64,000 nucleotides of DNA, from the sequence record PP534475.1, one strand, 5' to 3'. Origin of the DNA: Escherichia phage YJin-2024a. The notes under the pieces are model-generated. The model ran no database searches. It was given only the letters and a program-made list of their open reading frames with translations, and was not told the DNA's origin. How positions within the stretch are numbered: position 1 is the first letter of the stretch; the number at the start of each line of letters is the position of its first letter. This document shows positions 822 through 64,000 of this stretch, in pieces. The position numbers were made by a program, and so were the translations under genes.

Positions 822-824
822 TTA

Positions 825-4195: not shown

Positions 4196-4212
4196 TTTTA
4201 AATAATTCTCCG

Positions 4213-4845: not shown

Positions 4846-4848
4846 TTA

Positions 4849-8400: not shown

Positions 8401-8882
8401 TACTTCTTACCTCCAGTAGCTAGGGAAGTAATTAAGTCCATGTAGTTTTGATCCCCAGCTCCAGCAATAATATTGTTCTGGATATTGGTCTGGTTAGCTG
8501 GAGTACGGGCTGCTGCTTTCACTTTCTCCAACTCTACCATCATTTTCATTTCTTCCATTTTCATTTTATGTGCTTTCCAGAGAATATCCATAATATCCTG
8601 GTCAGAACCCATGCCAGTCTCTTCTAGTTCTTCCAGCTTACGTTTAATAACTTCATCTAGAACACCAAATAAACGATCCCTATTACGGAAACCACTTTCC
8701 ATAAAAATATCATTTAAGTAGTTCTTAACTTCACTACGATTCATAATATCTCGAAAAGCAATTTCGGACATTCCAAGGCTACGTGCGGCAGAAGGCACAT
8801 CGCTACCGCACTGTAAATAAGCTTCAATCACATCCATCCCTTCAGGGGACATAAGATCTGGTACTAATACATCATTTGCCAT
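8400..8882 (-). CDS. putative terminase small subunit / HTH DNA-binding protein
   Basis: 160 aa; helix-turn-helix-like [16 protein letters not shown]; TAATG overlap with the terminase large subunit start. Confidence 0.45.
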
Positions 8883-8892
8883 ATTTCCTCCT

Positions 8893-10680
8893 TTAGGTAA
8901 GGCGTTGAACTGTTACTCTTAATCTTGGTAGGAAAATAGCTGCAGCCTCATCTGCATGAATAATTACGCCCAATTCAGCATTACCATTTCCTAGATTTTT
9001 AATAGTATAAATATATCCGTTTCTTCTAAATGTTAACTCATCAGGTCTACTTGCCCAAGTTTGAGTATAACTATATGCAGTAGTGGAGTGATAAGGGACT
9101 AAGTATCCAGGAGGTAAGGTTAATATTTGATGGAATATTCCATCACCTTCCGTGTAACTATGCTGTCTTCTTCCTTGTACTTGCCAAGCAGCACCACCGT
9201 ATGTGCGTATGGCTCCTCCAGCCGTATTAATATTACCCATAATAACTTCCGTAGTTAATATTACCGTTGCGTTAGCGTTAGGCAATCCTAATCCTATGGT
9301 GGCCAAAGCTCTATAGTAGTTGCCTGCTCCAGGATACGCGGGGGTTATATCATCACCAACGTAGGTGCTAGCAACATTATTAGGAAATAGTCTTAAAGGT
9401 ACAGTACTAGGACTCCACACAGCTCCATGCTCATTACCGATAGTGTTATTACTTGAGTTTACGTACCATTGCTTACCTGCTCCGAATTTGTAAATACTGA
9501 TTTGAGACTTGGCTCCTCCATAATCTACAGGAGACCATAAAGATCCATTACTAGATCCTACAATTTCACATCTTGCAGTGGTATCCCCGAAGGCTCCAGT
9601 GTACGCTGCGTTATTTCCAATGTACTCCATATCTGGCCTATAGCCTAAGTTACCAAAAGCATTTTGGTTGATAAACTTATATCCAGTATTTGGTAAACTA
9701 ACCCCTTTTATAGTAAAATTAGATGGAGTTATAAGTATATCTGACCCAGTAAATGGATTACCAGATACACCCATATTACCATTAGAGTACCTTAGATTAA
9801 GTACATACCAAATAACCTTAGTAGGAGTTATGTTATACCAATCCTGCACATACACTTTCTTAGCGGCCTGTGCTGCTAGATTAGATGTTGAACCTTTACA
9901 TATATAAACCTTATCAGGATACGTAGGAGATTGGTATAATAAGTTAACATTAGCTGGTACTGTGCCCTTTTTACCTACGTAACCTCGTATATTAGAGTTA
10001 CAAACATAGAACCAATTATGCCCCCTATGGGCGGCCCCTATAGGAGCTTGCCAATTAGGATGCCAGTAGTCAGCATTACCACCGTCTATAGGTACTGTAG
10101 ATGCTCCTGCTGGAAATCCTGCTAAAGTCCATGCCCTACCTATAGCCTCACCAGCATATGCTCCTCCCGGCCTATATAAATTAAACCCGGAGGCTTGAGA
10201 TATGGTACCACCTGTACCCTGCCTAGCAATTGATTCTTCATGGCCTAAACCAGAGTTATAAATATAGGTGCCATGTGCTAAACTATTACCTGATGCAAAA
10301 GCTGACGTAAGACCTACTTCTGCACCTGCCCTACCAATAGGCGGATCTTCAAAAAATGCAGTAAATTGACCAACTTGAGACTGAGTACCATTAAGAAAAG
10401 CCCTATGAGTACCATTAATCTCAATAGCAGTTAGTATAACTCTACCTGGGTCATTGGATTTAATATTTATTATGTCAGAGGGCATCTGACATACAAAAAA
10501 CCCATTTCCAGCATTTCCTAATCCAGCCTCATAAGTGCCATCAACTAGGACAAATGGCATATCACTATGAAAAATACTATTGGCATTTGGACTATAATGA
10601 CGATTAATGTCACCACCAGATTCAGTATTTAAAGATAGTACGGTCTTACCATCGCTATATTTTCCAGCGAAAAAACCCAT
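8893..10680 (-). CDS. receptor-binding tail protein (pb5/Oad-like) or tail fibre
   Basis: 595 aa, Gly/Asn/Tyr-rich; last late gene before the repeat region; divergent lipoprotein gene next to it, as recalled for T5 oad-llp. Confidence 0.5.
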
Positions 10681-27088: not shown

Positions 27089-27610
27089 TTAGCCATTTAA
27101 CATCCAGCTAGTTTTATCGTGCGAAGTGTACTTACCACTCATGATGTCTTCCAGACGTACTGGTGATTTTGCATACTCGACACAAACGTTAATATAACGA
27201 GGATCCCCCATTAGCTCAAAGTGAGTATGCCCATGTAAGTTCTTCTTACCTCTCAGCTCCCCAGGGTGTATTGGAGCATGGGAAAGCCAGAAGTTTTTAT
27301 ACTTAACTAGTGATTGTACGTTATCTACAATCCCTATTAAGTCTTTGAAAGATAATCCTTCTCGTTCTAAGTCGTGGTTTCCTAAAACTAACGTAGTTCT
27401 AACATTGCCAAAGAGTTTTTCGAACTTCTCCAAACCATTTCTAGATACAAATGCGTCTCCTAAAATATAGAATACTGTACGCTTATCTTTCACGGATGTA
27501 ATAGTATCCATAATAAATTCGTCATGCTCTTCCATAGTAGAGAAGATTGGTCTGAATTTAGTAATATTTGTATGTCCTAAGTGGAGATCACTCCAAAAGC
27601 AAACTTTCAT
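27089..27610 (-). CDS. metallophosphoesterase / Ser-Thr phosphatase-like (173 aa)
   Basis: GDAF...GNHD...HGHTH motifs. Confidence 0.7.
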   Translation of the reverse strand: MKVCFWSDLHLGHTNITKFRPIFSTMEEHDEFIMDTITSVKDKRTVFYILGDAFVSRNGLEKFEKLFGNVRTTLVLGNHDLEREGLSFKDLIGIVDNVQSLVKYKNFWLSHAPIHPGELRGKKNLHGHTHFELMGDPRYINVCVEYAKSPVRLEDIMSGKYTSHDKTSWMLNG

Positions 27611-37109: not shown

Positions 37110-37230
37110 ATTACCTCCATTAAGTCTTTTAAATTAACCTAATGTGGATGAATTTTATTATACATAAACTATTTTCCTGTATACAGAAAAACCCCAGACT
37201 ACTTATTCAATAGCTGGGGTTTGTTATTAA

Positions 37231-37545
37231 TTACAGATCGGGGCGTTCATCTTCGAAACAGCCTGAGCTAATTCCTTCTCCGAATCCTACAAAGCCATCA
37301 AATTCATCATTTGAGATGCCCATAATCATTGCTTCCATTTTCCTAATCTCCGAGATTTTCATGCCTGCTTTACTATTCTTATAGTACTTGCGAGGGTTCC
37401 CACACATCCAACAAGAACAGATGCAAGGAGTAGTAGTGATAATACCTAACCGTTTAGGGCTTTCTTCATGTGGGAAGACTGTCCAATACTTTTTGCGATT
37501 GTTCTTCACACGTTGCCGGTGATGACGTCTTAATGCTCGATCCAC
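37231..37545 (-). CDS. Cys-rich hypothetical protein (104 aa)
   Basis: CICSCWMCGNP cluster. Confidence 0.45.
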   Translation of the reverse strand: MDRALRRHHRQRVKNNRKKYWTVFPHEESPKRLGIITTTPCICSCWMCGNPRKYYKNSKAGMKISEIRKMEAMIMGISNDEFDGFVGFGEGISSGCFEDERPDL

Positions 37546-37626: not shown

Positions 37627-37995
37627 TTACATCGCCTGAGTAAATGTACGACTAATAACGTCGTTCTGTTGTTCACGCGTCAATGCATTAAATCGAACAG
37701 CATAGCCAGAGACACGGATTGTCAGCTGAGGATATTTTTCAGGATGTTTCTGCGCATCCAAAAGCTGATCACGGCTTAATACATTGACATTTAGGTGCTG
37801 ACCACCTTCGATTTGAGGGGCGACTTCCACTTTGACTTCACGGAAGGCTTCGGGATCGAATTGTGGTGTGATACCTTCTAGATCTTCAACTAGAACTTTC
37901 TGTTTAAGTTCACCGTTGTCGGAGTATAGCTGAATAATCTGATTTTCATGGACAAGGTTAATTACGCCAGATTTAAGATTTTGATATGCTTTCAT
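37627..37995 (-). CDS. autonomous glycyl-radical cofactor, GrcA/YfiD-like
   Basis: C-terminus [25 protein letters not shown] is the glycyl-radical signature and closely resembles E. coli GrcA as I recall it. Confidence 0.75.
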
Positions 37996-38037
37996 TAGAT
38001 CTCCCCGATGTTAGAATTTGGCTCAGCTATTTATTCT

Positions 38038-38232
38038 TTATACTTTTCCATAGTATACGGAAACTGTCTTACCAGTTTGGTTCATAACATATGCTACTTC
38101 ATCTTCTTTTAAAAAGATAGCTTGGTCTACTCCAACTATAGCCAATCTTTTATTTCTAGGATTAAAGCTTACACTTTTGCCTGTATGAATCTGTTCCCCA
38201 TTCTTGGCTGACATTATTTTAATTGTTAACAT
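38038..38232 (-). CDS. hypothetical protein (64 aa)
   Basis: ORF only. Confidence 0.4.
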   Translation of the reverse strand: MLTIKIMSAKNGEQIHTGKSVSFNPRNKRLAIVGVDQAIFLKEDEVAYVMNQTGKTVSVYYGKV

Positions 38233-38269
38233 AGCTGCTCCTAAAGTTAGCTATCTCTAGCTCTTTTAA

Positions 38270-38345
38270 TGGTAGTTAGTAGTGGATTTGAACCACTGTA
38301 GTCGCTCCGTATGAAGGAGGTGCATAACCACTCTGCCAACTAACT
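38270..38345 (-). tRNA. tRNA with CAU anticodon (Met or Ile2)
   Basis: T-arm, 7-bp acceptor pairing, CCA encoded; anticodon loop UUCAUAC. Confidence 0.7.
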
Positions 38346-38441
38346 GTTATGTTTTACTAGACTAAGTAAGTATTCTTTATACTCTTTAGACCAACTAGCT
38401 TTTTTAAACTTTCCTGGACGCATAGTCTTAATTCCTAAATT

Positions 38442-38518
38442 TGGTACTCCGGGAGGGATTTAAACCCCCGATCTCTCGGTTATCAGCCGAGTGCTTTAGA
38501 TCGCTAAGCTACCGAAGC
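38442..38518 (-). tRNA. tRNA-Ile (GAU)
   Basis: Acceptor and T-arm pairing, CCA encoded; loop CUGAUAA. Confidence 0.7.
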
Positions 38519-38519
38519 A

Positions 38520-38726
38520 TTAATATTTAATTGCAGAACGTTTACCATTTCTAGGCGCACCTGGAAGTCGTGCACGTTCTGCCATTCTTCGCTTAATCTT
38601 TGAGATATTTTCTAGTGTTTGTTCTTCAGGCTTAATACCTGAAACACTACACCACTGATTACCATCCCATGCGATAATGATCATAACACCATTACCCATA
38701 ATCTTTTCTGTGAAAGTAATTCTCAT
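38520..38726 (-). CDS. hypothetical protein
   Basis: ORF between tRNA genes; start at internal Met. Confidence 0.35.
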   Translation of the reverse strand: MRITFTEKIMGNGVMIIIAWDGNQWCSVSGIKPEEQTLENISKIKRRMAERARLPGAPRNGKRSAIKY

Positions 38727-39019
38727 TATAGCAACTCGTCTAAGCAAGAGGTATATTTAAGTTTACCATCTTTATCTACTTTGATTTCGACTTCCGCTCG
38801 TGGTACTTGACGAACTACACCATGAATCATCTTATAGCGAATGCCTTTAGCTGGTTCACGATCTTTTGGAAATACTTGCTTAACCGTTACTACCTTGAAA
38901 CCCTCACGCGGTGTTAACACTACTACTTGATCACCTTCTTTGATCTTCCAAGAGCTAGGAAATTCATAGGTATAGCGTTGACCACCAGTTTGGAACACAA
39001 CAGAAAGATAACGTTTCAT
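38726..39019 (-). CDS. hypothetical protein (97 aa)
   Basis: ORF with PN25-like promoter upstream. Confidence 0.5.
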   Translation of the reverse strand: MKRYLSVVFQTGGQRYTYEFPSSWKIKEGDQVVVLTPREGFKVVTVKQVFPKDREPAKGIRYKMIHGVVRQVPRAEVEIKVDKDGKLKYTSCLDELL

Positions 39020-39049
39020 TTGGTTTCCCTCTCATTAATTTATATAAAT

Positions 39050-39078
39050 ATTATAACAAGAAATAAGAGAGAAGGCAA
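39050..39078 (-). promoter_or_regulatory. early sigma70 promoter, PN25-like family
   Basis: TTGCCT-17-TATAAT on the minus strand. Confidence 0.5.
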
Positions 39079-39086
39079 ATGAATTT

Positions 39087-39254
39087 TTAATAAAGTTTAG
39101 TCACTTCATAAACTATACTACGAGATTCTTTATTACGTTGTATTAAATTAGCGTATGCTTCTTCAGCTTCATTTTTAGTATTAAAGTCTATAACGTGAGA
39201 GGTATTAGCTCTATTTGATTGGCTATACCAGATAACTACTAGGAGTTTAAACAT
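39087..39254 (-). CDS. hypothetical protein
   Basis: Start moved to the internal Met with AAGGAT RBS to avoid the adjacent tRNA. Confidence 0.35.
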   Translation of the reverse strand: MFKLLVVIWYSQSNRANTSHVIDFNTKNEAEEAYANLIQRNKESRSIVYEVTKLY

Positions 39255-39268
39255 ACTAATCCTTAAAT

Positions 39269-39355
39269 TGGTGCTGGGCACAGGATTCGAACCTGCAACG
39301 GGATTACTCCTCCTGATTACAAATCAGGTGCATTCAACCATTCTGCCAACCCAGC
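39269..39355 (-). tRNA. type II tRNA (long variable arm), anticodon loop UUUGUAA, isotype uncertain
   Basis: 87 nt; 3-bp D stem and 15-nt variable arm; anticodon reads UGU, which is atypical for a type II body. Confidence 0.5.
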
Positions 39356-39520
39356 AGAACCCGTTATTTCAACGGGATTTCTTTTTCAATAACAAGAGAC
39401 TTGTCAGTCATAACTGTCATTGCCATTTGTTGTAGAAATTCAAAGGTGAAGGCTACACGTTCTTCACCAATCTCTACTTCTACACGTTTCTTTTGTTTAT
39501 CGATCTTGACTTTTAGGTTA

Positions 39521-39742
39521 TCAGCCATCTTCGGGTTCTCGTTGCTGCGCTACTTCTAGCCAGTCTGGTAGAAGAAACTTTGTACGAAATTCTTCGTAAG
39601 TTTCTTTGGGATAAAAGCTAAAACCTCCTTTCTCGTCATTCAGGATAACAGAGCCGTCAGTTTGTTCGTATGCTCGGTATGTTTCTCCAATAACAATAAC
39701 TCGTTTATCGGTACTTTTATTACGAAATTCAAAAACGTGCAT
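39521..39742 (-). CDS. hypothetical protein (73 aa)
   Basis: ORF only. Confidence 0.45.
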   Translation of the reverse strand: MHVFEFRNKSTDKRVIVIGETYRAYEQTDGSVILNDEKGGFSFYPKETYEEFRTKFLLPDWLEVAQQREPEDG

Positions 39743-39758
39743 AACGTTTCCTTAAAGT

Positions 39759-39834
39759 TGGAGCGGCTAGAGGGAATCGAACCCTACTCAGCGAGGCTTG
39801 GAAGGCCTGCGACACAACCCGTGTGCTTAACCGC
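39759..39834 (-). tRNA. tRNA-Gly (UCC)
   Basis: Acceptor and T-arm pairing; loop CUUCCAA. Confidence 0.7.
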
Positions 39835-39842
39835 TTATTGTT

Positions 39843-39919
39843 TGGCTGGAGAAGGAGGAATCGAACCTACCATTAACGGAGTCAAAGGCCGTTGTGCTAA
39901 CCGTTACACTACTCTCCAA
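39843..39919 (-). tRNA. tRNA-Gln (UUG)
   Basis: Acceptor and T-arm pairing; loop CUUUGAC. Confidence 0.7.
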
Positions 39920-39924
39920 TTATT

Positions 39925-40000
39925 TGGCTGGAGTGCCTGGGATCGAACCAGGAACCTTCGGAGTCAGAGGCCGACGATCTGCCAATTGATCTACACTCCA
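39925..40000 (-). tRNA. tRNA-Gln (CUG)
   Basis: Perfect acceptor pairing; loop CUCUGAC. Confidence 0.7.
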
Positions 40001-40008
40001 ATAATCCT

Positions 40009-40209
40009 TTACTCTACAGGAACCGTGGCTATTGGTTCTGGTTCTTCTAGACGTTTGCCTTCATGATCTACACGAATAACACCACAACCTTCACAGATTA
40101 CAACAGCACCGTAGCCTTCTTTAACTTCGGCTTCTGTAATCAAACCAGAAAGATCACCAGTATCTTTACCCCACATATCAATGGAGCATTGTTTGCAGAA
40201 ATCAGCCAT
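40009..40209 (-). CDS. zinc-ribbon protein (66 aa)
   Basis: CKQC ... CEGCG cysteine pairs. Confidence 0.45.
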   Translation of the reverse strand: MADFCKQCSIDMWGKDTGDLSGLITEAEVKEGYGAVVICEGCGVIRVDHEGKRLEEPEPIATVPVE

Positions 40210-40234
40210 ATTTTATTTCCTATTTAAGTTAATT

Positions 40235-40311
40235 TGGGGTGGCTAGTGGAATTCGAATCCACATAGGCCTGATTCACAATCAGGATCATTAACCAATTAT
40301 GATATAGCCAC
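40235..40311 (-). tRNA. tRNA-His (GUG)
   Basis: Perfect acceptor and T stems; loop UUGUGAA. Confidence 0.7.
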
Positions 40312-40680
40312 AATTGAAAACTCGCAGGGTTAGCGAAACCTTCCTCAATTAGCATGTTCTAGAATACTAATCAAGTTATCTCCTATTGCACGCAGCTCAA
40401 GACGAGTACGAGTTTTCAATTGTGGCGGCTCTCCGAAACTCTTCTACTCTAGCCTTAGCAGCTTACTCCCGAACGCATGTCGGGAAAGTCTTACTAAGAG
40501 CATCAAATAGCTCCGTTACACTTTGAGCCATAGATGTATCAAGAAGCAGAAGGACTTGAACCTTCACGAGATAGACCATTTATCTCAGCCGCTTTATGAG
40601 GTATGTTGTAGAGAGTGGATGTTCTCTATAAACCTTTTAGGCAGCCCCGTCTACCAATTCCGGCATACTTCAAGAATTTC

Positions 40681-40863
40681 TTATAAACCAGCAGAAGCCT
40701 CATTTAAAGCATCAACAATAGCCTGTTGTTGCGTCCATCCTCTACCAGTAGAATTAACATGTGGAAGATATACTTCCCAATAACCGTCCTCTAGTAAGGT
40801 TATTTGTGCACTAAACTCTGTGCCATCAGTTAGTGTAACCTTCACAGTTTTTGTTAAAGACAT
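40681..40863 (-). CDS. hypothetical protein (60 aa)
   Basis: ORF only. Confidence 0.4.
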   Translation of the reverse strand: MSLTKTVKVTLTDGTEFSAQITLLEDGYWEVYLPHVNSTGRGWTQQQAIVDALNEASAGL

Positions 40864-40879
40864 ATATTATCCTATAAGT

Positions 40880-40969
40880 TGGCAGAAGATAATGGAGTCG
40901 AACCATCACCGTATCGCTACAGCGGGCTGGTTTTCAAGACCAGTTACGTACCACTACGTCCTATCTTCT
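40880..40969 (-). tRNA. tRNA-Ser (UGA), type II
   Basis: 90 nt; perfect acceptor pairing; loop CUUGAAA. Confidence 0.7.
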
Positions 40970-40975
40970 ATTGTT

Positions 40976-41066
40976 TGGCGGAAGAGGAGAGATTTGAACT
41001 CTCAAGCCGTTTTACCAGTCAGCCACTTTCCAAGCGGTTTTCGTCGCCAATTCGATTTGCTCTTCC
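40976..41066 (-). tRNA. tRNA-Ser (GGA), type II
   Basis: 91 nt; perfect acceptor and T stems; loop UUGGAAA. Confidence 0.6.
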
Positions 41067-41178
41067 AATAATAAGATGATGCCTCTATCACACCAGGCAG
41101 TTACGCCTCGCTGGGATTCGAACCCATTAAAACAGCTCAACCGAGATAGTAGGTTTAATTTACTCTGACCATCAAATT

Positions 41179-41255
41179 TGGTGCGTGACAAGGGATTCGA
41201 ACCCTCAAAACCCGACTTCTAAGGACGGTATGTATGCCAATTCCATCAATCACGC
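41179..41255 (-). tRNA. tRNA, anticodon UAG (Leu-like) with short variable arm
   Basis: Acceptor and T-arm pairing; GAATTGG D-loop; loop CUUAGAA. Confidence 0.55.
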
Positions 41256-41260
41256 ATGTT

Positions 41261-41339
41261 TGGTGGAGAATAACGGAATCGAACCGTTCTGATGTCCTCG
41301 GTGCAAGCGAGGTGTCCACTCCATGCAGACCCATTCCCC
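41261..41339 (-). tRNA. tRNA-Ala (UGC)
   Basis: Acceptor and T-arm pairing; loop CUUGCAC. Confidence 0.65.
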
Positions 41340-41671
41340 AAATTCTTTAGTTTACTAAGGCTATTAGCTCGGCGTAACTACAGCACCTTCGCTTCAAGCG
41401 GAAGGAACCGCGTCATCTCGCAAACCCGATACACTATTCAGTTGCCACTGAATCTAGTGGACTAATCTAGAACTTCTCCCGAATCGTAGGGATCGTGCTT
41501 TTTGGCAGCCAGTCCTAGGTCGAGCTAATACCTTAGTGAACTAAATTGATGGATACCAGACTAATTTTGCTACGACGTTTATCCTGGGGATCTCTTTTTC
41601 GGTAGCTCTGCTAGTGTAGACGTCATACACCTGGTATCTAGGCAGCTATTTTCGCATCAATTTATATAAAT

Positions 41672-41700
41672 ATAATAACAAGAAATTAAGCATCAAGCAA
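41672..41700 (-). promoter_or_regulatory. early sigma70 promoter feeding a tRNA operon through a ~330 nt non-coding leader
   Basis: TTGCTT-17-TATTAT on the minus strand; no ORF downstream before the tRNAs. Confidence 0.45.
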
Positions 41701-41718
41701 CTACGTTTTTCTTGAAAT

Positions 41719-41797
41719 TGGTAGATCGCCTGGGACTCGAACCCAGAACCTTCCGATTAAAAGTCGGATGCTACTAAACCTATTGAGCTAGCGATCT
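41719..41797 (-). tRNA. tRNA-Lys (UUU)
   Basis: Perfect acceptor, T and anticodon stems; loop CUUUUAA. Confidence 0.7.
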
Positions 41798-41986
41798 ATT
41801 AGTAACCATTGTATACTTCTTTAATAGAGTGAACTTTCAGGTAATGGTGATTAGTACTAAACTCTACCATTACTTCATCCCAATTTTTACCATAATGGGC
41901 AAGTAAGGATTTTGATGTATTCTTACCTAACCGTTTGTCACTTACTACTAATCGAAATACTTTCATTTCGAAATCCTCTATTAAAA

Positions 41987-42064
41987 TGGAAGCGGGTGCA
42001 GGAATCGAACCTACCTCTTTCTAGCTTATGAGACTAGCGATCTCTACCAGAGATCTAACCCGCA
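41987..42064 (-). tRNA. tRNA with CAU anticodon (second copy; Met/fMet/Ile2)
   Basis: Loop CUCAUAA; 1-72 position unpaired, as in initiator-type tRNAs. Confidence 0.6.
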
Positions 42065-42070
42065 ATTGTT

Positions 42071-42148
42071 TGGTCTCCGTGAGAGGATTTGAACCCCCGA
42101 CCCTATCGCCCCAAACGAAACGCTCTGGCCAAACTGAGCTACACGGAG
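42071..42148 (-). tRNA. tRNA-Pro (UGG)
   Basis: Perfect acceptor pairing; loop UUUGGGG. Confidence 0.65.
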
Positions 42149-42150
42149 AA

Positions 42151-42310
42151 TATTATTTCTTCAACCACAACAAAGATAAGCCCAGCATACTAAAGCCGCT
42201 AACTAATCCGATACATTTTTCTTCTATAGTAAAAGTATCTAGATTAAATGCTGTTATAGCTATTGGCATACACCATAATGCCATAAAAACTTGAGCTATC
42301 TTGTGTTTCA
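42151..42310 (-). CDS. small membrane peptide (53 aa)
   Basis: GAAGGAAAG RBS; hydrophobic; behind a PN25-like promoter; not in the ORF track. Confidence 0.35.
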
Positions 42311-42343
42311 TTTTGCTTTCCTTCTCTTCACTTTATAAAATAT

Positions 42344-42372
42344 ATTATACAGAGAATTAAGCAGAATAGCAA
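42344..42372 (-). promoter_or_regulatory. early sigma70 promoter, PN25-like family
   Basis: TTGCTA-17-TATAAT on the minus strand. Confidence 0.55.
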
Positions 42373-42764
42373 ATGAATTTTTAATAAATTTACTTATTGT
42401 GTAGGCCACCTGGAGGCTATGAACCCCACGGCTGACAAAGAAGTTTGCGAGACCTCTCTTAAATGCCAGAATAGACCCGCCGATCTATCGGAACCTACAT
42501 AATAAGTAAACTTTATAGTGTCATTCTAGACAGGACTCGAACCTGTTATCACTTGTGCGGACTTACGAGAACCATTCTTTCACTCGAATCGAACGAGCTT
42601 CTGCCCTAGCCAAGCTGGTTTCCCCATCAACCACGCTAGAATGTTTGATTGTTTTCAGTGCAAGAGTCCGAGTCTTGGACACGACCGCTTCGCAAGTACA
42701 TAGGCAGCTTATCATGAGTCAGCACTTCCGAATTGCTAGCTCCGTGTTCTGCACTGAAATTTTG

Positions 42765-43112
42765 TTAATTTAATAGTAAAGTACGATCTACTTCACCATT
42801 AATTGTTCGGCATTCTTCTGGGATTGCTGGTGTAGTCTTATATTCCCACCATTCAGAACCATCATATTCACCACGTTCTAACCAAGTTCCGTCAGTAAAC
42901 CATACATTACCATAAAGCAATTGCCCACCGAAACCCGAGTCATATTTAAAGTCTAGATTATTTAGAAAATCTTCAATATCTTTTTCTGTATAACCTACGG
43001 GCAATACCCAAACTTCTTTGTCTCCATAATAACCGAATTCTATCTTAATACACTTAACTTCAGAATTAGTATTCTTTAGGGCAAGTAACAACTCTTCTTT
43101 AGCATTAATCAT
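42765..43112 (-). CDS. hypothetical protein (115 aa)
   Basis: ORF only. Confidence 0.5.
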   Translation of the reverse strand: MINAKEELLLALKNTNSEVKCIKIEFGYYGDKEVWVLPVGYTEKDIEDFLNNLDFKYDSGFGGQLLYGNVWFTDGTWLERGEYDGSEWWEYKTTPAIPEECRTINGEVDRTLLLN

Positions 43113-43138
43113 AGCATATTTCTCGTGCTAGTTTAATT

Positions 43139-43215
43139 TGGCGCGACCGATGGGATTCGAACCCACATTCTCTCCCGTGACAGGGGAGTACCATTACCAA
43201 GCCAGCCCCGGTCGC
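43139..43215 (-). tRNA. tRNA-Asp (GUC)
   Basis: Perfect acceptor pairing; loop CUGUCAC. Confidence 0.75.
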
Positions 43216-43224
43216 ATAATTCAT

Positions 43225-43410
43225 TTACTCAGCTTTGAGTTTTTCAATAGCTGCATTAAGTTCCTTAAGAAACTCTTTTCGTACATTAAGACGATTAAGA
43301 CTTACTAGTATATCATGTTTAAGTTCTTCGATGTATTTCTTCTCAACTTCAATATTGTTGATAGTGCTATCACGATGAACTTCTAGCTGCGCAATTACAT
43401 TCTTGGACAT
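43225..43410 (-). CDS. hypothetical coiled-coil protein (61 aa)
   Basis: ORF only. Confidence 0.4.
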   Translation of the reverse strand: MSKNVIAQLEVHRDSTINNIEVEKKYIEELKHDILVSLNRLNVRKEFLKELNAAIEKLKAE

Positions 43411-43512
43411 GCTTGTTTCCTCAGTTATTAATGAAAATGGTATCTGTGGCTGAATTCGATGTCAGCAATGATAGCTGGTTGGCTACCGGTTTACTTAACT
43501 CTACACAGAATT

Positions 43513-43595
43513 TGGCGGGCCGTGTAGGATTCGAACCTACGTTGTCTTTCGACATGGATTAACAGTCCACCGCCAAACCGCTTGGCTAACGACCC
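43513..43595 (-). tRNA. tRNA with GUU anticodon (Asn) on a body carrying a 13-nt variable hairpin
   Basis: 83 nt; acceptor and T-arm pairing; loop CUGUUAA; extra arm GTC-GAAA-GAC. Confidence 0.55.
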
Positions 43596-43747
43596 TAAAT
43601 TTATATTGCTGACTAGGATTTTCACCTAGACGGAGTTAGCACCGTAGCGTGTAGCGGCATACCTCTCCAAACCGTGCCTCATCTTTCAATTACGGAGACA
43701 GTGTTCCTACGCGTGCCTGAATTGTTTTAACAATTCTTTCAGCAAAT

Positions 43748-43823
43748 TGGACGACCGCATGAGATTTGAACTCACATAAAAAGGATTTGCAATCCTTCGC
43801 CTAAGCCATTCAGCCAACGGTCG
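43748..43823 (-). tRNA. tRNA-Cys (GCA)
   Basis: Acceptor pairing; perfect anticodon stem; loop UUGCAAA. Confidence 0.7.
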
Positions 43824-43871
43824 ATTTATCTTATTCTATCATGTTGCTTCTCCAGTTCAATTTATGTAATT

Positions 43872-43900
43872 ATTATACAGAACTTTTGGAAACTAAGCAA
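43872..43900 (-). promoter_or_regulatory. early sigma70 promoter upstream of tRNA-Cys
   Basis: TTGCTT-17-TATAAT on the minus strand. Confidence 0.5.
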
Positions 43901-44180
43901 CTACATTTTTTAAGAATTTGATGCCTTTCTTTTTCTTCTTATATTTCCACGTTAATGGATTCTGTCGATTGTGAACGCTTGAGATCTTTGTCTCGTCAAA
44001 GTTCTTCAATATCATGTAATCACAAGATAATTGTTCTAATGGAATGTGATCACCGTCAAAAGCGTATACATAAGGCTGTTGACTAGCACGATAATGATAG
44101 ACTTTGTTAATTCTACGTTTCAGCGACTTATCCGCGCAGTAAATAAAGAAGTTTTCAGGATGCATCAGCAGCTCCTTCAA
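43893..44180 (-). CDS. hypothetical basic protein (95 aa)
   Basis: ORF only. Confidence 0.45.
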   Translation of the reverse strand: MKELLMHPENFFIYCADKSLKRRINKVYHYRASQQPYVYAFDGDHIPLEQLSCDYMILKNFDETKISSVHNRQNPLTWKYKKKKKGIKFLKNVVA

Positions 44181-44263
44181 ATTGGTGCACCCTGTTCGTA
44201 TCGAACGAACCTCTCAAGCTCTTCAGGCAAGCGCTAATCCATCTCAGCTAAAGGTGCAAATTT

Positions 44264-44340
44264 TGGCAAACCTACTAGGACTCGAACCTAGACCGTACGG
44301 TTTTGGAGACCGACATGCTGTCCAGTAACACTCTAGGAAT
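44264..44340 (-). tRNA. tRNA-like, anticodon loop CUCCAAA (Trp CCA) but acceptor stem does not pair
   Basis: Perfect T-arm and anticodon arm; CCA encoded; no complementary 5' acceptor strand found. Confidence 0.4.
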
Positions 44341-44348
44341 GCAGGAAT

Positions 44349-44425
44349 TGGCGTCCTGTGCGGGGATCGAACCCGCAAATCCTACCTTGAAAGGGTAGTG
44401 ACTTTACCAGTTTGTCTAACAGGAC
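44349..44425 (-). tRNA. tRNA-Glu (UUC)
   Basis: Perfect acceptor, T and anticodon stems; loop CUUUCAA. Confidence 0.75.
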
Positions 44426-44431
44426 TTAAAT

Positions 44432-44519
44432 TGGTGGGGAAAGATGGAGTCGAACCACCCGAGTCGCAATGACAACTGATTTACAGTCAGCTCTGCTACC
44501 ACTTACAGAATATTTCCCC
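44432..44519 (-). tRNA. tRNA-Tyr (GUA), type II
   Basis: 88 nt; perfect acceptor pairing; loop CUGUAAA. Confidence 0.7.
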
Positions 44520-44650
44520 ATATTTAGAAGTATTCAAAAAATTCTAATTTAAACACTTTTAAATATGTTTCCAAATTAGATAACTATTATACCAAGTTTT
44601 AAGGCACTGAGCAAGTCAAATTTTAAAGAACTTGCTCAGTGCTGTATTAG

Positions 44651-44926
44651 TTAGTCGAACTTAGGAGCGACAGTTAAGGAGAACGGAAGTTCGAAAACTT
44701 CTTCGCCCTCATCACTAACAGTAATTACACGACCTTTAAGTTCAGACATTGAAATATCAATATCAGCTTTTGCATCTGGAGCCATGCCAGCTTCAACACA
44801 TTTAGCTTTAATTTCCGGCAGAAGTTCTACATCGTAGAAATAAAGCCATTCAATCTCACCTTCCCAGCCTTCCCAGGATTTACAGATTGCACTTTCAATA
44901 CCAGTTGCTATAACACGATTTTGCAT
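44651..44926 (-). CDS. hypothetical acidic protein (91 aa)
   Basis: ORF with promoter upstream. Confidence 0.5.
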   Translation of the reverse strand: MQNRVIATGIESAICKSWEGWEGEIEWLYFYDVELLPEIKAKCVEAGMAPDAKADIDISMSELKGRVITVSDEGEEVFELPFSLTVAPKFD

Positions 44927-44956
44927 TCGTTAACTCCTTCATCAATTTATATAACT

Positions 44957-44986
44957 ATTATACCAGAAATTTAAAGCAAAAGGCAA
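44957..44986 (-). promoter_or_regulatory. early sigma70 promoter, PN25-like family
   Basis: TTGCCT-18-TATAAT on the minus strand. Confidence 0.45.
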
Positions 44987-45016
44987 GTACATTTTTAAAA
45001 ATTCTGTTTGGAGGAG

Positions 45017-45223
45017 CTAAACTCCAGATTCTTCAGCCAAGTCTAGACTAATAAGAGATATAGCCATAATTGCCGCTCCATGTTCTTTTTCTCCAGTCTC
45101 TTTAGCTAGAGTTATAATGTCAAGAAATTGCTTATGAAAATCTGCAACCTCTTGAGTTATACCTGCCTCAGCAATCATACCTTTAAGCATGAAACGTTGT
45201 GCGGTAATTTCAGGATTAGCCAT
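45017..45223 (-). CDS. hypothetical protein (68 aa)
   Basis: ORF only. Confidence 0.4.
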   Translation of the reverse strand: MANPEITAQRFMLKGMIAEAGITQEVADFHKQFLDIITLAKETGEKEHGAAIMAISLISLDLAEESGV

Positions 45224-45398
45224 GTTGTTTCTCCAGTTTCATCTTTAATAGTCTACAAATAAAATCAATGTCTTCATCCGTGCCTAGATCTCTATCTTCA
45301 AGAGTTGCCTTGAAGTTTTTAGTCAATTCCATAAGGATGACTTCCCTAGAACGACGTGTTGGCGGAGGTGGATGTCTATACATCTTATTTCCTTAATT

Positions 45399-45475
45399 TG
45401 GTAGGGGTGGTGGGATTCGAACCCACAAAACCTGAATTTTAAGTCCAGTACCTATGCCAATTCGATTACACCCCC
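45399..45475 (-). tRNA. tRNA, anticodon UAA (Leu-like) with short variable arm
   Basis: Acceptor and T-arm pairing; GAATTGG D-loop; loop CUUAAAA. Confidence 0.55.
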
Positions 45476-45576
45476 GTGTAATCAGTTTATTAGTTGATAC
45501 ATATTATAGCCTAGTGAAAATCCTACTACTAGTCCCACAAACCAACCAATATAATAATCTTTTAGTTTCACAGGTA

Positions 45577-45762
45577 TTATCCTCGTTCAATATCTAGGGA
45601 AATACCACAGTTAGGATTAATACCTGTACCACTGCAATTTGGGCAAACCCAGATATTGCAAAAAGTATCTCCTGCTTCTGCATCAGAACTTTCACCAATT
45701 CCCCTACACTCAGGGCAGACACATTCTTCTAGCTCTTGCTTGAGTTCTTGAAACTTAGACAT
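45577..45762 (-). CDS. small zinc-finger protein with two CxxCxGxG motifs (DnaJ-type zinc centre)
   Basis: CPECRGIG and CPNCSGTG. Confidence 0.5.
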   Translation of the reverse strand: MSKFQELKQELEECVCPECRGIGESSDAEAGDTFCNIWVCPNCSGTGINPNCGISLDIERG

Positions 45763-45770
45763 ATAGTCTC

Positions 45771-46172
45771 CTAATTAAGTTTTTCAAAACGACCTAGAGA
45801 ATCTCTAGTCATCTTATTTAAGATTTTTCCCATATTCTGCTTTCTTGTGAATAATTCTAGGTTAGGTAAAGCATTATTAGACTTATCATCATCTTTGTGC
45901 TCTATTTCATAGCCTTCCGGTATTTCACCGTTGAAAGCCATCCATACGAGTCTGTGCACATATTCATTTTTACCTAGTCCCTTATTGCAAATTTTCACCT
46001 GAAAATATCCAGATTTACCATTGCAACGTGGAGATAATACCTTTCCTTTTATAGTTCTAGTGTACTCGCTATATTGATTTCGTTGTGTTATTATTCTATC
46101 CTTAGTTTCTATTGTACCATTTAAGTGTACAATTAAAATAACACCAAAGTACTCAAATTCAACCTTTTCCAT
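45771..46172 (-). CDS. HNH homing endonuclease
   Basis: EIEHKDDDKSNNALPNLELFTRKQN HNH-family motif. Confidence 0.65.
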   Translation of the reverse strand: MEKVEFEYFGVILIVHLNGTIETKDRIITQRNQYSEYTRTIKGKVLSPRCNGKSGYFQVKICNKGLGKNEYVHRLVWMAFNGEIPEGYEIEHKDDDKSNNALPNLELFTRKQNMGKILNKMTRDSLGRFEKLN

Positions 46173-46186
46173 ACGTAATACCTAAT

Positions 46187-46261
46187 TGGTGGGTCGGAGG
46201 AGAATCTAACTCCTACTCATTAGCTTATGAGGCCACCGCTTTAACTTTAAGCTACCGACCC
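46187..46261 (-). tRNA. tRNA-like with non-canonical anticodon loop and T-loop
   Basis: Perfect acceptor and T stems, CCA encoded, but a 6-nt anticodon loop between perfect 5-bp stems and a TTAGATT T-loop. Confidence 0.4.
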
Positions 46262-46267
46262 TATGTT

Positions 46268-46361
46268 TGGAGGAAGATGCCAGACTCGAACTGGCACACC
46301 GTGTTTCCACAGTTACTGGCTGTTTAGCAAACAGCTCCCTTACCTTTAGGGTTAATCTTCC
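46268..46361 (-). tRNA. tRNA-Ser (GCU), type II
   Basis: 94 nt; perfect acceptor and T stems; loop UUGCUAA. Confidence 0.65.
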
Positions 46362-46382
46362 AAATTTATAAGATATATTATA

Positions 46383-46844
46383 TTAGAAATTTAGCTTCAT
46401 AGCAAGAAAATTTTTCAAGTTTTCGGTAGACATCTCATCCACATCTATAGGAGAAACAAAGCCGTTTAATTTTCTAGCAAATTTTTCACCTGCAGGGTCA
46501 TTATCCCCGACAGCTACCAATTTAAAAGGTAGTAATTTCAGTTGCTTTAATAACGCAACTGCCTTAAATACAGATTCAGCAATCAATACTACTTTTTCAT
46601 CTCCATTGAGAGTTTCTAGTCCCCATACACACTGGGTAGTAGAATGAGTAAAGTATTTAGCTTCAAAGGGGCACTTACCATGACCTTTTGGAGCAGAAGG
46701 ATTATAAGTTTGATAGCCCCTCAACATCCCAGAGAAGTCATATAACGGGACTGTTAGCCATCCTTCCGGACTTAACCAGCAATGATATTTATCTGTATCA
46801 AATCCTCTAGATAAGAGGTGCTGTGTTAGCTCATCAACATTCAT
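46383..46844 (-). CDS. Toprim-like domain protein
   Basis: VVLIAESVF ... VAVGDNDPAG resembles the Toprim acidic motif. Confidence 0.45.
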   Translation of the reverse strand: MNVDELTQHLLSRGFDTDKYHCWLSPEGWLTVPLYDFSGMLRGYQTYNPSAPKGHGKCPFEAKYFTHSTTQCVWGLETLNGDEKVVLIAESVFKAVALLKQLKLLPFKLVAVGDNDPAGEKFARKLNGFVSPIDVDEMSTENLKNFLAMKLNF

Positions 46845-46874
46845 ATTTGGTTCCTCTCTCAAATTTATAGATAT

Positions 46875-46903
46875 ATTATACAGAGAATTTAGCATTCAAG
46901 CAA
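46875..46903 (-). promoter_or_regulatory. early sigma70 promoter, PN25-like family
   Basis: TTGCTT-17-TATAAT on the minus strand. Confidence 0.55.
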
Positions 46904-47019
46904 TCAAATTTTTTAACTTTTTAGAGAAAAATCATAGGGCACTTAAGGATAGCAGATAAGTGGTGAGGACCAAAATTTGTGACCCCACTAAAAATCCGGG
47001 GGTAATTTTTAAAGACCCC

Positions 47020-47048
47020 TTGACATTTTCGCTGGGGTAGTGTAAAGT
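47020..47048 (+). promoter_or_regulatory. sigma70 promoter for the plus-strand island (TTGACA-17-TAAAGT)
   Basis: Perfect -35 TTGACA at 47020-47025; weaker -10. Confidence 0.5.
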
Positions 47049-47110
47049 ATATGTTATGGATGAGTGATCAAAGAGACACACATTTTCTATATACTAGGAG
47101 GTGTCAAAAA

Positions 47111-62807: not shown

Positions 62808-63560
62808 TTACACCTTCCCCATGTCTTTAAAAATATCATAGAATGCTTTAGACTCAACAGAACGAACGTTATCAATCAGTTCGATCATTGAGAATGGGGC
62901 ATTTTCGTATTTCTCATAGACTTCCATAAGGAGTGCTAGACCTGAGTCACCTTTAATGTCTTTCTGAGCTATATCTCCGCAGATAATTAAACGGCAGTCT
63001 TGTCCTACACGAGTTAGGAGACAAATCATTGCCTCAACGGAAATATTCTGAGCTTCATCGACAATTACATAGGAGTTGTTGAAAGTTCTGCCACGAGCAT
63101 GTTCGATAGCCAAAAATTTAATTTTCTGACGTTCGACATATCCCTTATAGGCATGATCGCCGATGGCCCATTTCATACCATCAGCTATTGGCTCCAACCA
63201 AGGCTCTAGCTTTTCTGCTAGATCACCAGGAAGCATACCAAGAGACTTACCTAGAGGTTCATTAGGACGTACGAGAATCACCTGCTCAATATCTGAGTGA
63301 ATGTCTACGAGTTCCTGAGCTGCAAGAACGGACGGAATAAAGGTTTTACCAGTACCTGGCTCACCGATACCCACAGTCACTGTGTTGTTCTTGATCATAT
63401 TGATATATGATTTTTGCTCGCGGTTTTTACCTACTAGGGATTTAGCAACTGGGTTAGCGTAATCATTAGAAAAATCAGCCTGAATTACGTTATTCTCATA
63501 TTTGTTGCCACGCTTTCTTGAACCATTGCGGTTCTCTCTTTTTTGACGTGCTTTTCCCAT
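62808..63560 (-). CDS. phoH: PhoH-like ATPase
   Basis: Walker A GEPGTGKTF; start at the ATG with AGGAG RBS (the ORF track begins at an upstream GTG). Confidence 0.85.
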   Translation of the reverse strand: MGKARQKRENRNGSRKRGNKYENNVIQADFSNDYANPVAKSLVGKNREQKSYINMIKNNTVTVGIGEPGTGKTFIPSVLAAQELVDIHSDIEQVILVRPNEPLGKSLGMLPGDLAEKLEPWLEPIADGMKWAIGDHAYKGYVERQKIKFLAIEHARGRTFNNSYVIVDEAQNISVEAMICLLTRVGQDCRLIICGDIAQKDIKGDSGLALLMEVYEKYENAPFSMIELIDNVRSVESKAFYDIFKDMGKV

Positions 63561-63636
63561 AAATAACACTCCTATAGTGTACTTCGCTTCTAACAGAGGA
63601 TCAACAAAGAGATCTTGTTTATCAACTTACAAATAC

Positions 63637-63665: not shown

Positions 63666-63837
63666 GTATAATTTTAAATAAACCTATGATATTGCTTTTA
63701 AATAAAAAATTTACTTGCTTATAAAGGTAGAAGTATGATACTAGATAATCATTTATTTATATGTAAAGATATTATGCTGTATAGCATCAATAAAAATTGA
63801 TAAAAATCAAAAGTCAAATAGTATTAGAAAAATGTAG

Positions 63838-63866
63838 TTGACGTATGGGGTGGAATTATGTATAAT
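63838..63866 (+). promoter_or_regulatory. sigma70 promoter (TTGACG-17-TATAAT) for a plus-strand gene
   Basis: Good -35 and perfect -10 followed by AAGGAG and ATG. Confidence 0.6.
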
Positions 63867-63887
63867 ATGTAAATTAAGGAGAATTTA

Positions 63888-64000
63888 ATGGTAAGAAAGA
63901 GAATAACTACAGAAGATGTGAACTTAGCACTTGCTCCTAGAGGAATAGTTATGCTAAGCACGTATATATCAGCTAAATCCAACGCTATATTTAAGTGCTC
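63888..64000 (+). CDS. hypothetical protein, N-terminal part (runs off the window end)
   Basis: AAGGAG RBS 7 nt before the ATG; divergent from phoH. Confidence 0.5.
   Translation, partial: MVRKRITTEDVNLALAPRGIVMLSTYISAKSNAIFKC

What the first reader, a model, noticed from the sequence alone, without database searches (positions are those of the whole stretch)
37627..37995. Phage-encoded GrcA-like autonomous glycyl-radical cofactor
The 122 aa protein ends in [25 protein letters not shown], the glycyl-radical signature, and matches E. coli GrcA/YfiD along most of its length as I recall that sequence. GrcA can restore oxygen-damaged pyruvate formate-lyase. A phage copy implies manipulation of host anaerobic metabolism or support of a glycyl-radical enzyme. 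No anaerobic NrdD gene is present in this window.
Basis: partly seen in the sequence, partly recalled or inferred. Interest (0 to 1): 0.6.

Follow-up and report, generated by a model that had tools for sequence, protein, structure and literature searches.

The report
T5-like phage GrcA spare-part protein
This is a small gene of a T5-like phage encoding a stand-alone copy of the oxygen-sensitive tip of the host enzyme pyruvate formate-lyase; it is real and conserved, but it is already annotated, and its phage T4 counterpart was shown in 2001 to repair the oxygen-damaged enzyme.

Summary
A 122-aa ORF lies at 37627..37995 on the minus strand. Its C-terminal 62 residues form a PFL-type glycyl-radical domain (RVSG97YAV) that is 77-82% identical to E. 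coli GrcA, PflB and TdcE. The window is a Tequintavirus-type (T5-like) phage, and the gene is T5.056. It occurs in about 435 of about 440 Escherichia/Salmonella T5-like records, and an identical protein is already annotated "putative autonomous glycyl radical cofactor".

T4 Vs.6/Y06I, its 52%-identical full-length relative, is one of only two biochemically validated PFL spare parts. The gene is under strong purifying selection (dN/dS 0.07) and lies in an early operon with tRNA genes. It is not an NrdD fragment.

- Similarity to GrcA covers residues 46-121 only. Residues 1-31 are specific to the T5 lineage.
- The phage lineage does encode NrdD, just beyond the window's end.

The most likely function is repair of O2-cleaved host PflB or TdcE, after activation by host PflA. 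This is inferred from homology and was not tested. Verdict: already known, low interest. The only open point is the diverged N-terminal half.

The parts
37627..37995 (-). CDS of 122 aa plus stop codon: GrcA-like autonomous glycyl-radical protein, the ortholog of T5.056
   Evidence: ORF list. Pfam PF01228 at 66.4 bits. TIGR04365 GrcA at 121 bits, the best NCBIfam hit. 6OWR at E=1.4e-30. phrog_1209 matched full length at E=8e-48. 100% identical proteins occur in phages Th1, JLBYU40 and HASG4.
37630..37815 (-). Codons 61-122: the glycyl-radical domain. It corresponds to PflB 698-759 and YfiD 66-127 and comprises a beta strand, the radical loop and the C-terminal helix.
   Evidence: 49/62 identical to E. 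coli PflB, 51/62 to TdcE, 48/62 to GrcA and 48/62 to T4 Vs.6. tblastn with PflB hits only this stretch of the window. Foldseek matches are 6OWR and 2PFL. dN/dS is 0.017.
37705..37707 (-). Codon GGC for Gly97, the predicted radical-bearing glycine within RVSGYAV (residues 94-100)
   Evidence: Aligns with Gly102 of GrcA and Gly734 of PflB. Invariant in all 43 aligned homologs.
37816..37995 (-). Codons 1-60: N-terminal half specific to the T5 lineage. Residues 32-60 are weakly related to other phage GrcA-type proteins; residues 1-31 are not recognisable apart from the MKAYQ start.
   Evidence: hhalign against other phage N-halves gives prob 78%, E=2e-5, over residues 32-61 only; against bacterial GrcA N-halves it gives prob 8%. 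tblastn with this half alone finds only 432 T5-like records. dN/dS is 0.11.
38001..38006 (-). Shine-Dalgarno-like GGGGAG, 5 nt upstream of the ATG
   Evidence: Read directly from the sequence.
39024..39090 (-). Counterpart of T5 early promoter P11, the likely start of the transcription unit. Order of the unit: small ORFs, tRNA-Ile, tRNA-Met, a 64-aa ORF, the GrcA-like gene, then the T5.055 homolog.
   Evidence: 94% identical to the promoter P11 annotated in T5. The consensus scan finds TTGCCT-17-TATAAT with an upstream TG at 39078..39050. tRNAs lie at 38442-38518 and 38270-38345.
37187..37219 (-). Counterpart of the rho-independent terminator annotated in T5, downstream of the T5.055 homolog (37231..37545)
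   Evidence: 100% identical over 33 nt to T5 27219-27251, which is annotated as a terminator.

Best explanation
The gene encodes a phage version of the 'spare part' protein GrcA/YfiD. It is expressed early in infection, together with phage tRNAs.

Proposed mechanism:
1. The 122-aa protein supplies a fresh copy of the last ~62 residues of host pyruvate formate-lyase (PflB; possibly also TdcE).
2. Traces of oxygen cleave the host enzyme at its radical glycine (Gly734).
3. The phage protein docks in place of the lost C-terminal domain.
4. The host activase PflA installs a radical on its Gly97, within RVSGYAV. The phage encodes no activase.
5. [quoted passage not shown]

Rationale: T5 shuts off host gene expression and degrades host DNA, so the infected cell can no longer make new PflB or GrcA. 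A phage-borne copy would keep fermentative energy and acetyl-CoA supply running in the oxygen-fluctuating gut.

Shown here: gene, domain, conservation, selection, distribution and operon context.
Inferred from homology to E. coli YfiD and T4 Y06I: activation by PflA, docking to cleaved PflB, and the benefit to the phage.
For: - Complete PFL-type radical domain. It is 79% identical to PflB 698-759 and 82% to TdcE, with every family-invariant residue including RVSGYAV.
- The best NCBIfam hit is GrcA TIGR04365.
- Full-length membership of phrog_1209.
- 52% full-length identity to T-even Vs.6. T4 Vs.6/Y06I and E. coli YfiD are the two validated spare parts: both are activated by PFL-AE and both restore O2-cleaved PFL (PMC8683613, citing Wagner et al. 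2001).
- Purifying selection on both halves: dN/dS 0.068 overall, 0.11 for the N half and 0.017 for the C half, over 29 distinct alleles.
- Present in about 435 records, against 440 Escherichia/Salmonella T5-like records counted by capsid.
- No PflA-like gene in the window or in the first 66 kb of T5. No radical-SAM domain was found in the ORFs next to nrdD.
- The lineage also carries the O2-sensitive NrdD, which fits an anaerobic or microaerobic lifestyle.
- Placement in an early operon, between the counterparts of T5 promoter P11 and a T5 terminator.
Against: - No experiment exists for the T5-type protein. No paper was found.
- It scores below NCBIfam's curated GrcA cutoff (121 against 170). 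The validated T4 protein also fails it (151), so this weighs little.
- In YfiD the N-terminal half is needed for binding cleaved PFL and for efficient radical installation (PMC8683613). Here residues 1-31 are not detectably homologous to that region, so docking or target choice could differ.
- The sequence cannot discriminate PflB from TdcE as the target.
Confidence: 0.8

Rival explanations
1. Decoy or inhibitor. The protein uses its perfect PflA substrate loop and its lineage-specific N-terminal half to soak up the host activase PflA, or to cap PflB/TdcE unproductively. This would shut down or redirect host fermentation rather than repair it.
For: Residues 1-31 are not recognisably GrcA-like and occur only in T5-like phages. 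They are nevertheless under purifying selection (dN/dS 0.11). In YfiD this half mediates binding to cleaved PFL, so a different N half could mean a different interaction.
Against: Conservation extends well beyond the PflA recognition loop. The beta strand ([11 protein letters not shown]) and the C-terminal helix that fit into the PFL active site are also invariant or nearly so and have the lowest dN/dS (0.017). That is what a working replacement domain would need. The closest characterised relative, T4 Y06I, restores activity. A virulent phage gains from keeping energy metabolism running.
Confidence: 0.07
2. Spare part or subunit for another glycyl-radical enzyme, in particular the phage's own anaerobic ribonucleotide reductase NrdD, or a detached piece of a split nrdD.
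For: T5-like phages encode NrdD just beyond the window. Some GenBank records call this gene 'ribonucleotide reductase subunit'. It has been speculated that spare parts may exist for other glycyl-radical enzymes (PMC8683613).
Against: There is no similarity to the lineage's NrdD (BLASTP E=5.8). That NrdD is complete: 624 aa, with its own C-terminal zinc-ribbon-like cysteines and an RRVCGYLG glycyl site. The domain here is 79-82% identical to PflB/TdcE and matches the other glycyl-radical enzymes much more weakly.
Confidence: 0.02
3. A decaying fragment of a captured host pflB/tdcE 3' end with no function. Many records name the gene 'pyruvate formate-lyase'.
For: Only the last 62 residues match PflB. 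The best E. coli DNA match is the 3' end of pflB, at 75.8%.
Against: The ORF is intact in all 31 copies examined, with dN/dS 0.068 at dS 0.38. It is near-universal in the lineage. Its GC content has drifted to the phage level (41.5% against 48%) and nucleotide identity to host genes is only 70-74%, so the gene is old and maintained. It has its own ribosome-binding site and start codon, and an N half shared in part with other phage GrcA-type proteins.
Confidence: 0.01

Closest known systems
Bacteriophage T4 Vs.6 (Y06I), a validated autonomous glycyl-radical cofactor (Wagner et al. 2001, as cited in PMC8683613)
   Same: Both are small stand-alone proteins (120 and 122 aa) of virulent enterobacterial phages that also encode NrdD. 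Both start with MKAYQ. They align over their full length at about 52% identity, and the C-terminal radical domains are 77% identical. Both belong to phrog_1209.
   Different: The T4 N half is clearly homologous to that of bacterial GrcA (hhalign prob 98%, E=2e-14); the T5-type N half is not, beyond residues 32-61. The last 185 nt of T4 vs.6 are 97.8% identical to E. coli grcA DNA, which indicates a recent exchange with the host. The T5-type gene is only 70-74% identical to any host gene. The T5-type protein is untested.
E. coli GrcA/YfiD (TIGR04365, IPR011140; NMR structure 6OWR)
   Same: Same architecture: a variable N half followed by a PFL-type radical domain. HMMER gives E=1.4e-30 over residues 46-121, including the REV.VEV..P linker motif and all invariant residues.
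   Different: The phage protein scores 121 bits against the equivalog cutoff of 170. The N-terminal signature of GrcA (MI.GIQITKAANDxLLNSxWLLD) is absent. It is encoded by a phage and sits in an early operon with tRNA genes, rather than under the host's own regulation.
C-terminal domain of E. coli PflB (residues 698-759) and TdcE
   Same: 79% and 82% identical over 62 residues, marginally closer than to GrcA (77%). Same fold (Foldseek 2PFL).
   Different: It lacks the ~700-residue catalytic barrel with Cys418/Cys419, so the GenBank names 'pyruvate formate-lyase' and '2-ketobutyrate formate-lyase' are misnomers.
GrcA-like proteins of jumbo phages (for example Salmonella phage SE_PL, Klebsiella phage K64-1, Yersinia phage fHe-Yen9-03)
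   Same: These are the nearest non-T5 relatives in the protein search, at 56-70% identity. They share the DAQ and DVISRTFT variants in the radical domain.
   Different: Their N halves are of the T4/GrcA-related type ('...GEH.GTI...ARIIVSKT...'), not the T5 type.

Membership tests
GrcA/YfiD autonomous glycyl-radical cofactor (TIGR04365 / IPR011140) | Small (~14 kDa) stand-alone protein without the PFL catalytic barrel | tested here: met
   The ORF is 122 aa. tblastn with full-length PflB matches only residues 699-760 of PflB, at this ORF, and nowhere else in the window.
GrcA/YfiD autonomous glycyl-radical cofactor (TIGR04365 / IPR011140) | C-terminal PFL-type glycyl-radical domain with the RVSGYAV loop and the radical glycine | tested here: met
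   Pfam PF01228 at 66.4 bits against a cutoff of 22.2. RVSGYAV lies at residues 94-100 and Gly97 aligns with GrcA G102 and PflB G734. All 40 invariant columns are conserved.
GrcA/YfiD autonomous glycyl-radical cofactor (TIGR04365 / IPR011140) | GrcA-type N-terminal half (YfiD residues 1-60, implicated in binding cleaved PFL) | tested here: inconclusive
   The HMM match starts at residue 46-50. hhalign of the N halves gives prob 8% against bacterial GrcA and 78% against other phage GrcA-type proteins, over residues 32-61 only. Gln5 is nearly invariant across the family.
GrcA/YfiD autonomous glycyl-radical cofactor (TIGR04365 / IPR011140) | Score at or above NCBIfam's curated equivalog cutoff (170 bits) | tested here: not met
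   The score is 121 bits. Controls: E. coli GrcA scores 234, but the biochemically validated T4 Vs.6 scores only 151 and also fails. The cutoff is therefore tuned to bacterial GrcA and does not exclude function.
GrcA/YfiD autonomous glycyl-radical cofactor (TIGR04365 / IPR011140) | Radical installed on the glycine by PFL-activating enzyme (PflA) | not testable with these tools
   Needs EPR or an O2-cleavage assay. Only the recognition loop sequence is shown to be identical.
GrcA/YfiD autonomous glycyl-radical cofactor (TIGR04365 / IPR011140) | Restores activity to O2-cleaved PFL | not testable with these tools
   Shown for YfiD and T4 Y06I only (PMC8683613).
Pyruvate formate-lyase / 2-ketobutyrate formate-lyase (TIGR01255), as many GenBank records name this gene | Enzyme of ~760 aa with a ten-stranded barrel and catalytic Cys418/Cys419 | tested here: not met
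   The score is 85.9 bits against a cutoff of 994, and only profile positions 683-744 are matched.
Class III (anaerobic) ribonucleotide reductase NrdD, or a fragment of it | Sequence similarity to NrdD and its C-terminal CxxC...RxCGY glycyl-radical region | tested here: not met
   BLASTP against NrdD of the near-identical phage SP33 gives E=5.8. That NrdD is complete and carries its own RRVCGYLG site.
PHROG phrog_1209 (phage protein family, function listed as unknown) | Full-length profile match | tested here: met
   E=8e-48, residues 1-122 on profile positions 1-121 of 121.

The most novel reading that the evidence does not exclude
The T5-type N-terminal half is a distinct recognition module. 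Its residues 1-31 occur only in T5-like phages, are under purifying selection, and are not detectably related to the YfiD region that binds cleaved PFL. It could change what the spare radical domain does. Possibilities are docking to intact or differently damaged PflB, a preference for TdcE, escape from a host control, or titration of PflA. On this reading the T5 protein would be a functional variant rather than a simple copy of GrcA or Y06I.
Probability: 0.1. Interest if true: 0.45.

Novelty: already known. Interest (0 to 1): 0.15.

Why it matters
The finding adds nothing new in kind. Phage-borne PFL spare parts have been known since the T4 Y06I work, and this exact protein is already named a putative GrcA in GenBank.

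Its modest value lies in three points:
- Distribution. The gene is near-universal in Escherichia/Salmonella T5-like phages, and the wider family occurs in about 1,585 phage records, including T4-like and jumbo phages. It is therefore a common auxiliary metabolic gene of virulent enterobacterial phages, which points to infection under fluctuating oxygen.
- Annotation. Many database names for it are wrong, for example 'pyruvate formate-lyase' and 'ribonucleotide reductase subunit'.
- A natural experiment. The T5-type N-terminal half varies a region that is reported to control docking to damaged PFL.

Tried and rejected
- Split or fragmentary NrdD: rejected.
- Phage-encoded activase. tblastn with E. 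coli PflA found nothing in the window or in T5 1-66 kb at E<=1. Pfam found no radical-SAM domain in the small ORFs next to nrdD in T5 and SP33.
- Recent capture from the host: rejected. Nucleotide identity to E. coli grcA, pflB and tdcE 3' ends is only 70-74%, and GC content is at the phage level. This contrasts with T4 vs.6.
- A specific TdcE origin of the C-terminal tail ('[17 protein letters not shown]'). I considered this and dropped it: the same variants ([11 protein letters not shown]) recur in jumbo-phage homologs, and 62 highly conserved residues cannot resolve a phylogeny.
- A folded beta-sheet N half as a T5 peculiarity. AlphaFold2 predicted strands at pLDDT ~80. The control with an E. 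coli-type GrcA gave the same kind of prediction at pLDDT 80-88, although NMR reports that region disordered. The model says nothing distinctive. Foldseek found no PDB match for the N half.
- Neighbouring genes gave no functional clue: no informative Pfam hits, and PHROGs lists them as unknown function.
- Literature searches for a study of the T5 gene found nothing.
- Not resolved: whether Klebsiella T5-like phages (capsid ~70% identical) carry any GrcA-type gene. Vibrio Demerecviridae largely do not: 356 records have the capsid, but Vibrio is absent from the ten most frequent organism names among the GrcA hits.

Full report
**Observation.** The window has an ATG-to-stop ORF at 37627..37995 on the minus strand, encoding 122 aa. 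The sequence is [129 protein letters not shown] ribosome-binding site lies 5 nt upstream of the ATG. The coordinates are right, but the strand was not stated.

**Strength and extent of the similarity.**
- Pfam Gly_radical PF01228 scores 66.4 bits against a gathering score of 22.2.
- The best solved-structure relatives are E. coli GrcA/YfiD (6OWR, E=1.4e-30, residues 46-121) and the C-terminus of pyruvate formate-lyase (E=5e-27, residues 61-122).
- A direct alignment with sequences taken from E. coli K-12 and T4 gives these identities over the last 62 residues: 48/62 to GrcA, 49/62 to PflB, 51/62 to TdcE and 48/62 to T4 Vs.6.
- Over the first 60 residues only 15/56 aligned positions match GrcA and 18/51 match T4 Vs.6.
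- RVSGYAV occupies residues 94-100. Gly97 aligns with GrcA Gly102 and PflB Gly734.
- In an alignment of 43 phage and bacterial homologs, 40 columns are invariant. All of them lie in residues 63-119, and all are present here.

**Where the window comes from, and whether the gene is known.**
- The region is 98.5% identical to Salmonella phages PHB06 and SP33 (Tequintavirus, Demerecviridae).
- The ortholog in T5 is T5.056, annotated 'putative acetyltransferase-related protein, match to IPR001150'.
- Proteins 100% identical to this one are annotated 'putative autonomous glycyl radical cofactor' (phage JLBYU40) and 'pyruvate formate-lyase' (phage Th1).
- tblastn finds relatives in 1,585 phage records. 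About 435 are at >=80% identity (T5-like). About 1,000 are at ~52% over the full length (T4-like vs.6). Others are jumbo phages.
- The T5-type capsid at >=80% identity occurs in 440 records, so the gene is nearly universal in Escherichia/Salmonella T5-like phages.
- Vibrio Demerecviridae (356 capsid hits) largely lack it.
- T4 Vs.6 is Y06I. According to PMC8683613 (citing Wagner et al. 2001), Y06I and E. coli YfiD are the only two validated spare-part proteins. Both receive a glycyl radical from PFL-activating enzyme and restore activity to oxygen-cleaved PFL.
- No paper on the T5-type protein was found.

**Is it a working gene?**
- All 31 T5-like copies examined (the window plus 30 IMG/VR loci) are intact 122-codon ORFs.
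- Over the 29 distinct alleles, dS is 0.38 and dN/dS is 0.068. By half, dN/dS is 0.11 for the N half and 0.017 for the C half.
- GC content is 41.5%, against 39% for the window and 48% for the E. coli genes.
- The radical-domain DNA is only 70-74% identical to E. coli grcA, pflB or tdcE. This is an old, maintained phage gene and not a recent pick-up or a decaying fragment.

**Context.**
- The window's counterpart of T5 early promoter P11 lies at 39024-39090 (94% identical). The scan finds a TTGCCT-17-TATAAT site there.
- The counterpart of a T5 rho-independent terminator lies at 37187-37219 (100% identical).
- Between them, on the minus strand, lie small ORFs, tRNA-Ile, tRNA-Met, a 64-aa ORF, the GrcA-like gene and the T5.055 homolog.
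- The neighbours have no known function.
- The window contains no PflA-like activase and no NrdD.

**The NrdD remark.**
- T5 and SP33 carry nrdD about 350 bp beyond phoH.
- In the window, phoH is 62808..63569, and homology to SP33 and T5 stops at 63754.
- The last 246 bases match the start of an endonuclease gene that, in phage NR01, sits between phoH and nrdD.
- nrdD is therefore expected about 650 bp past the window's end.
- The SP33 NrdD is complete, with its own RRVCGYLG glycyl site, and shows no similarity to the 122-aa protein (E=5.8).
- The 'split nrdD' refutation condition is not met.

**The N-terminal half.**
- NCBIfam's GrcA equivalog model is the best hit but falls below its cutoff (121 against 170 bits).
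- As a control, the validated T4 Vs.6 also fails (151), while E. coli GrcA scores 234. The cutoff is not informative for phage members.
- Profile-profile comparison of N halves gives three results. T4-like and jumbo-phage N halves are clearly homologous to bacterial GrcA (prob 98%, E=2e-14, full length). The T5 type matches the other phage type over residues 32-61 only (prob 78%, E=2e-5). The T5 type matches the bacterial type barely at all (prob 8%).
- tblastn with residues 1-61 alone finds only 432 T5-like records.
- In YfiD, residues 1-60 are disordered by NMR, yet they are needed for binding cleaved PFL and for efficient radical installation (PMC8683613). This is the one place where the T5 protein might behave differently.
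- AlphaFold2 predicts beta strands for residues 2-37 at pLDDT ~80. The same kind of prediction, at pLDDT 80-88, is obtained for an E. coli-type GrcA, so it is not a distinguishing feature.
- Foldseek matches only the C-terminal domain, to 6OWR and 2PFL.

**Mechanism (inferred).**
1. The protein is made early in infection.
2. Oxygen cleaves host PflB (or TdcE) at its glycyl radical.
3. The protein's C-terminal domain replaces the lost segment.
4. Host PflA installs the radical on Gly97.
5. The radical is passed to Cys419 of PflB, and activity is restored.

It is established knowledge that T5 shuts off host gene expression and degrades host DNA (see the A1 annotation). A phage-borne spare part would compensate for the cell's inability to renew PflB or GrcA. 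The lineage's NrdD points to the same low-oxygen niche. Confidence in this reading is about 0.8.

Rivals are a PflA/PflB decoy (0.07), a helper for another glycyl-radical enzyme such as NrdD (0.02) and a non-functional fragment (0.01).

**Verdict.** The feature is already known and annotated, and its kind has been characterised biochemically in T4. Interest is low. The residual open question is what the lineage-specific N-terminal half does.

Noticed in passing
L006:5558-5920 (T4 vs.6) compared with L003:1067-1450 (E. coli K-12 grcA): The last 185 nt of T4 vs.6 (Y06I), including the stop codon, are 97.8% identical to E. coli grcA DNA. The identity ends abruptly at about codon 60 and at the stop codon. 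T4's radical domain therefore looks like a very recent recombinational replacement from the host. The T5-type gene shows nothing of the kind (70-74% nucleotide identity).
   Followed up: partly
Proteins P0098, P0100 and P0107: These are enterobacterial GrcA-type N halves joined to radical domains or tails identical to PflB (…NVMNREMLLDAMEHPEKY…TKEQQQDVITRTFTQSM). One cluster has 900 member sequences. This suggests grcA/pflB gene conversion, or else assembly chimeras.
   Followed up: no
window 38005-38269: This 265-bp segment is absent from T5. It lies between tRNA-Met and the GrcA-like gene and holds a 64-aa ORF (38038..38232, minus strand; phrog_3909, unknown function). In T5 the tRNA-Met gene directly abuts T5.056.
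   Followed up: partly
window 63755-64000: Homology to T5 and SP33 breaks at 63754. The last 246 bases match the upstream region and start of an endonuclease gene that phage NR01 and about 50 other records carry between phoH and nrdD. It is probably a mobile homing-endonuclease insertion.
   Followed up: partly
window 1-20665: The window begins in late structural genes: capsid 2819-4195, portal 5169-6386 and terminase 7084-8400. It then runs straight into DNA matching the T5 terminal repeat and pre-early region (11997-20665 matches T5 105-10436). The source record therefore has the terminal repeat collapsed to one copy, or is permuted.
   Followed up: partly
window 38270-49918: There is a cluster of 23 tRNA genes on the minus strand, immediately upstream of the GrcA-like gene in the direction of transcription. 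The gene appears to be co-transcribed with tRNA-Ile and tRNA-Met.
   Followed up: no
GenBank records listed: The same gene is variously named 'pyruvate formate-lyase', '2-ketobutyrate formate-lyase', 'acetyltransferase-related protein', 'ribonucleotide reductase subunit' and, in one T2 record, 'tail sheath monomer'. PHROGs lists the family (phrog_1209) as unknown function. In Citrobacter phage YZU-L1 it is annotated as a 67-aa truncated product (P0033).
   Followed up: no
Model me3462e8c4d4d (E. coli-type GrcA, P0107): AlphaFold2 predicts a beta-rich N-terminal half at pLDDT 80-88 for E. coli-type GrcA. The NMR study reports residues 1-60 as disordered. This may be a fold adopted only on binding PFL, or it may be over-prediction.
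   Followed up: no
L008:6287-6893 (T5.100, T5.101) and L009:2134-2628 (SP33): No NrdG-type activase domain was found in the small ORFs following nrdD in T5 or SP33. T5-like phages therefore appear to rely on host activases for both of their glycyl-radical proteins.
   Followed up: partly
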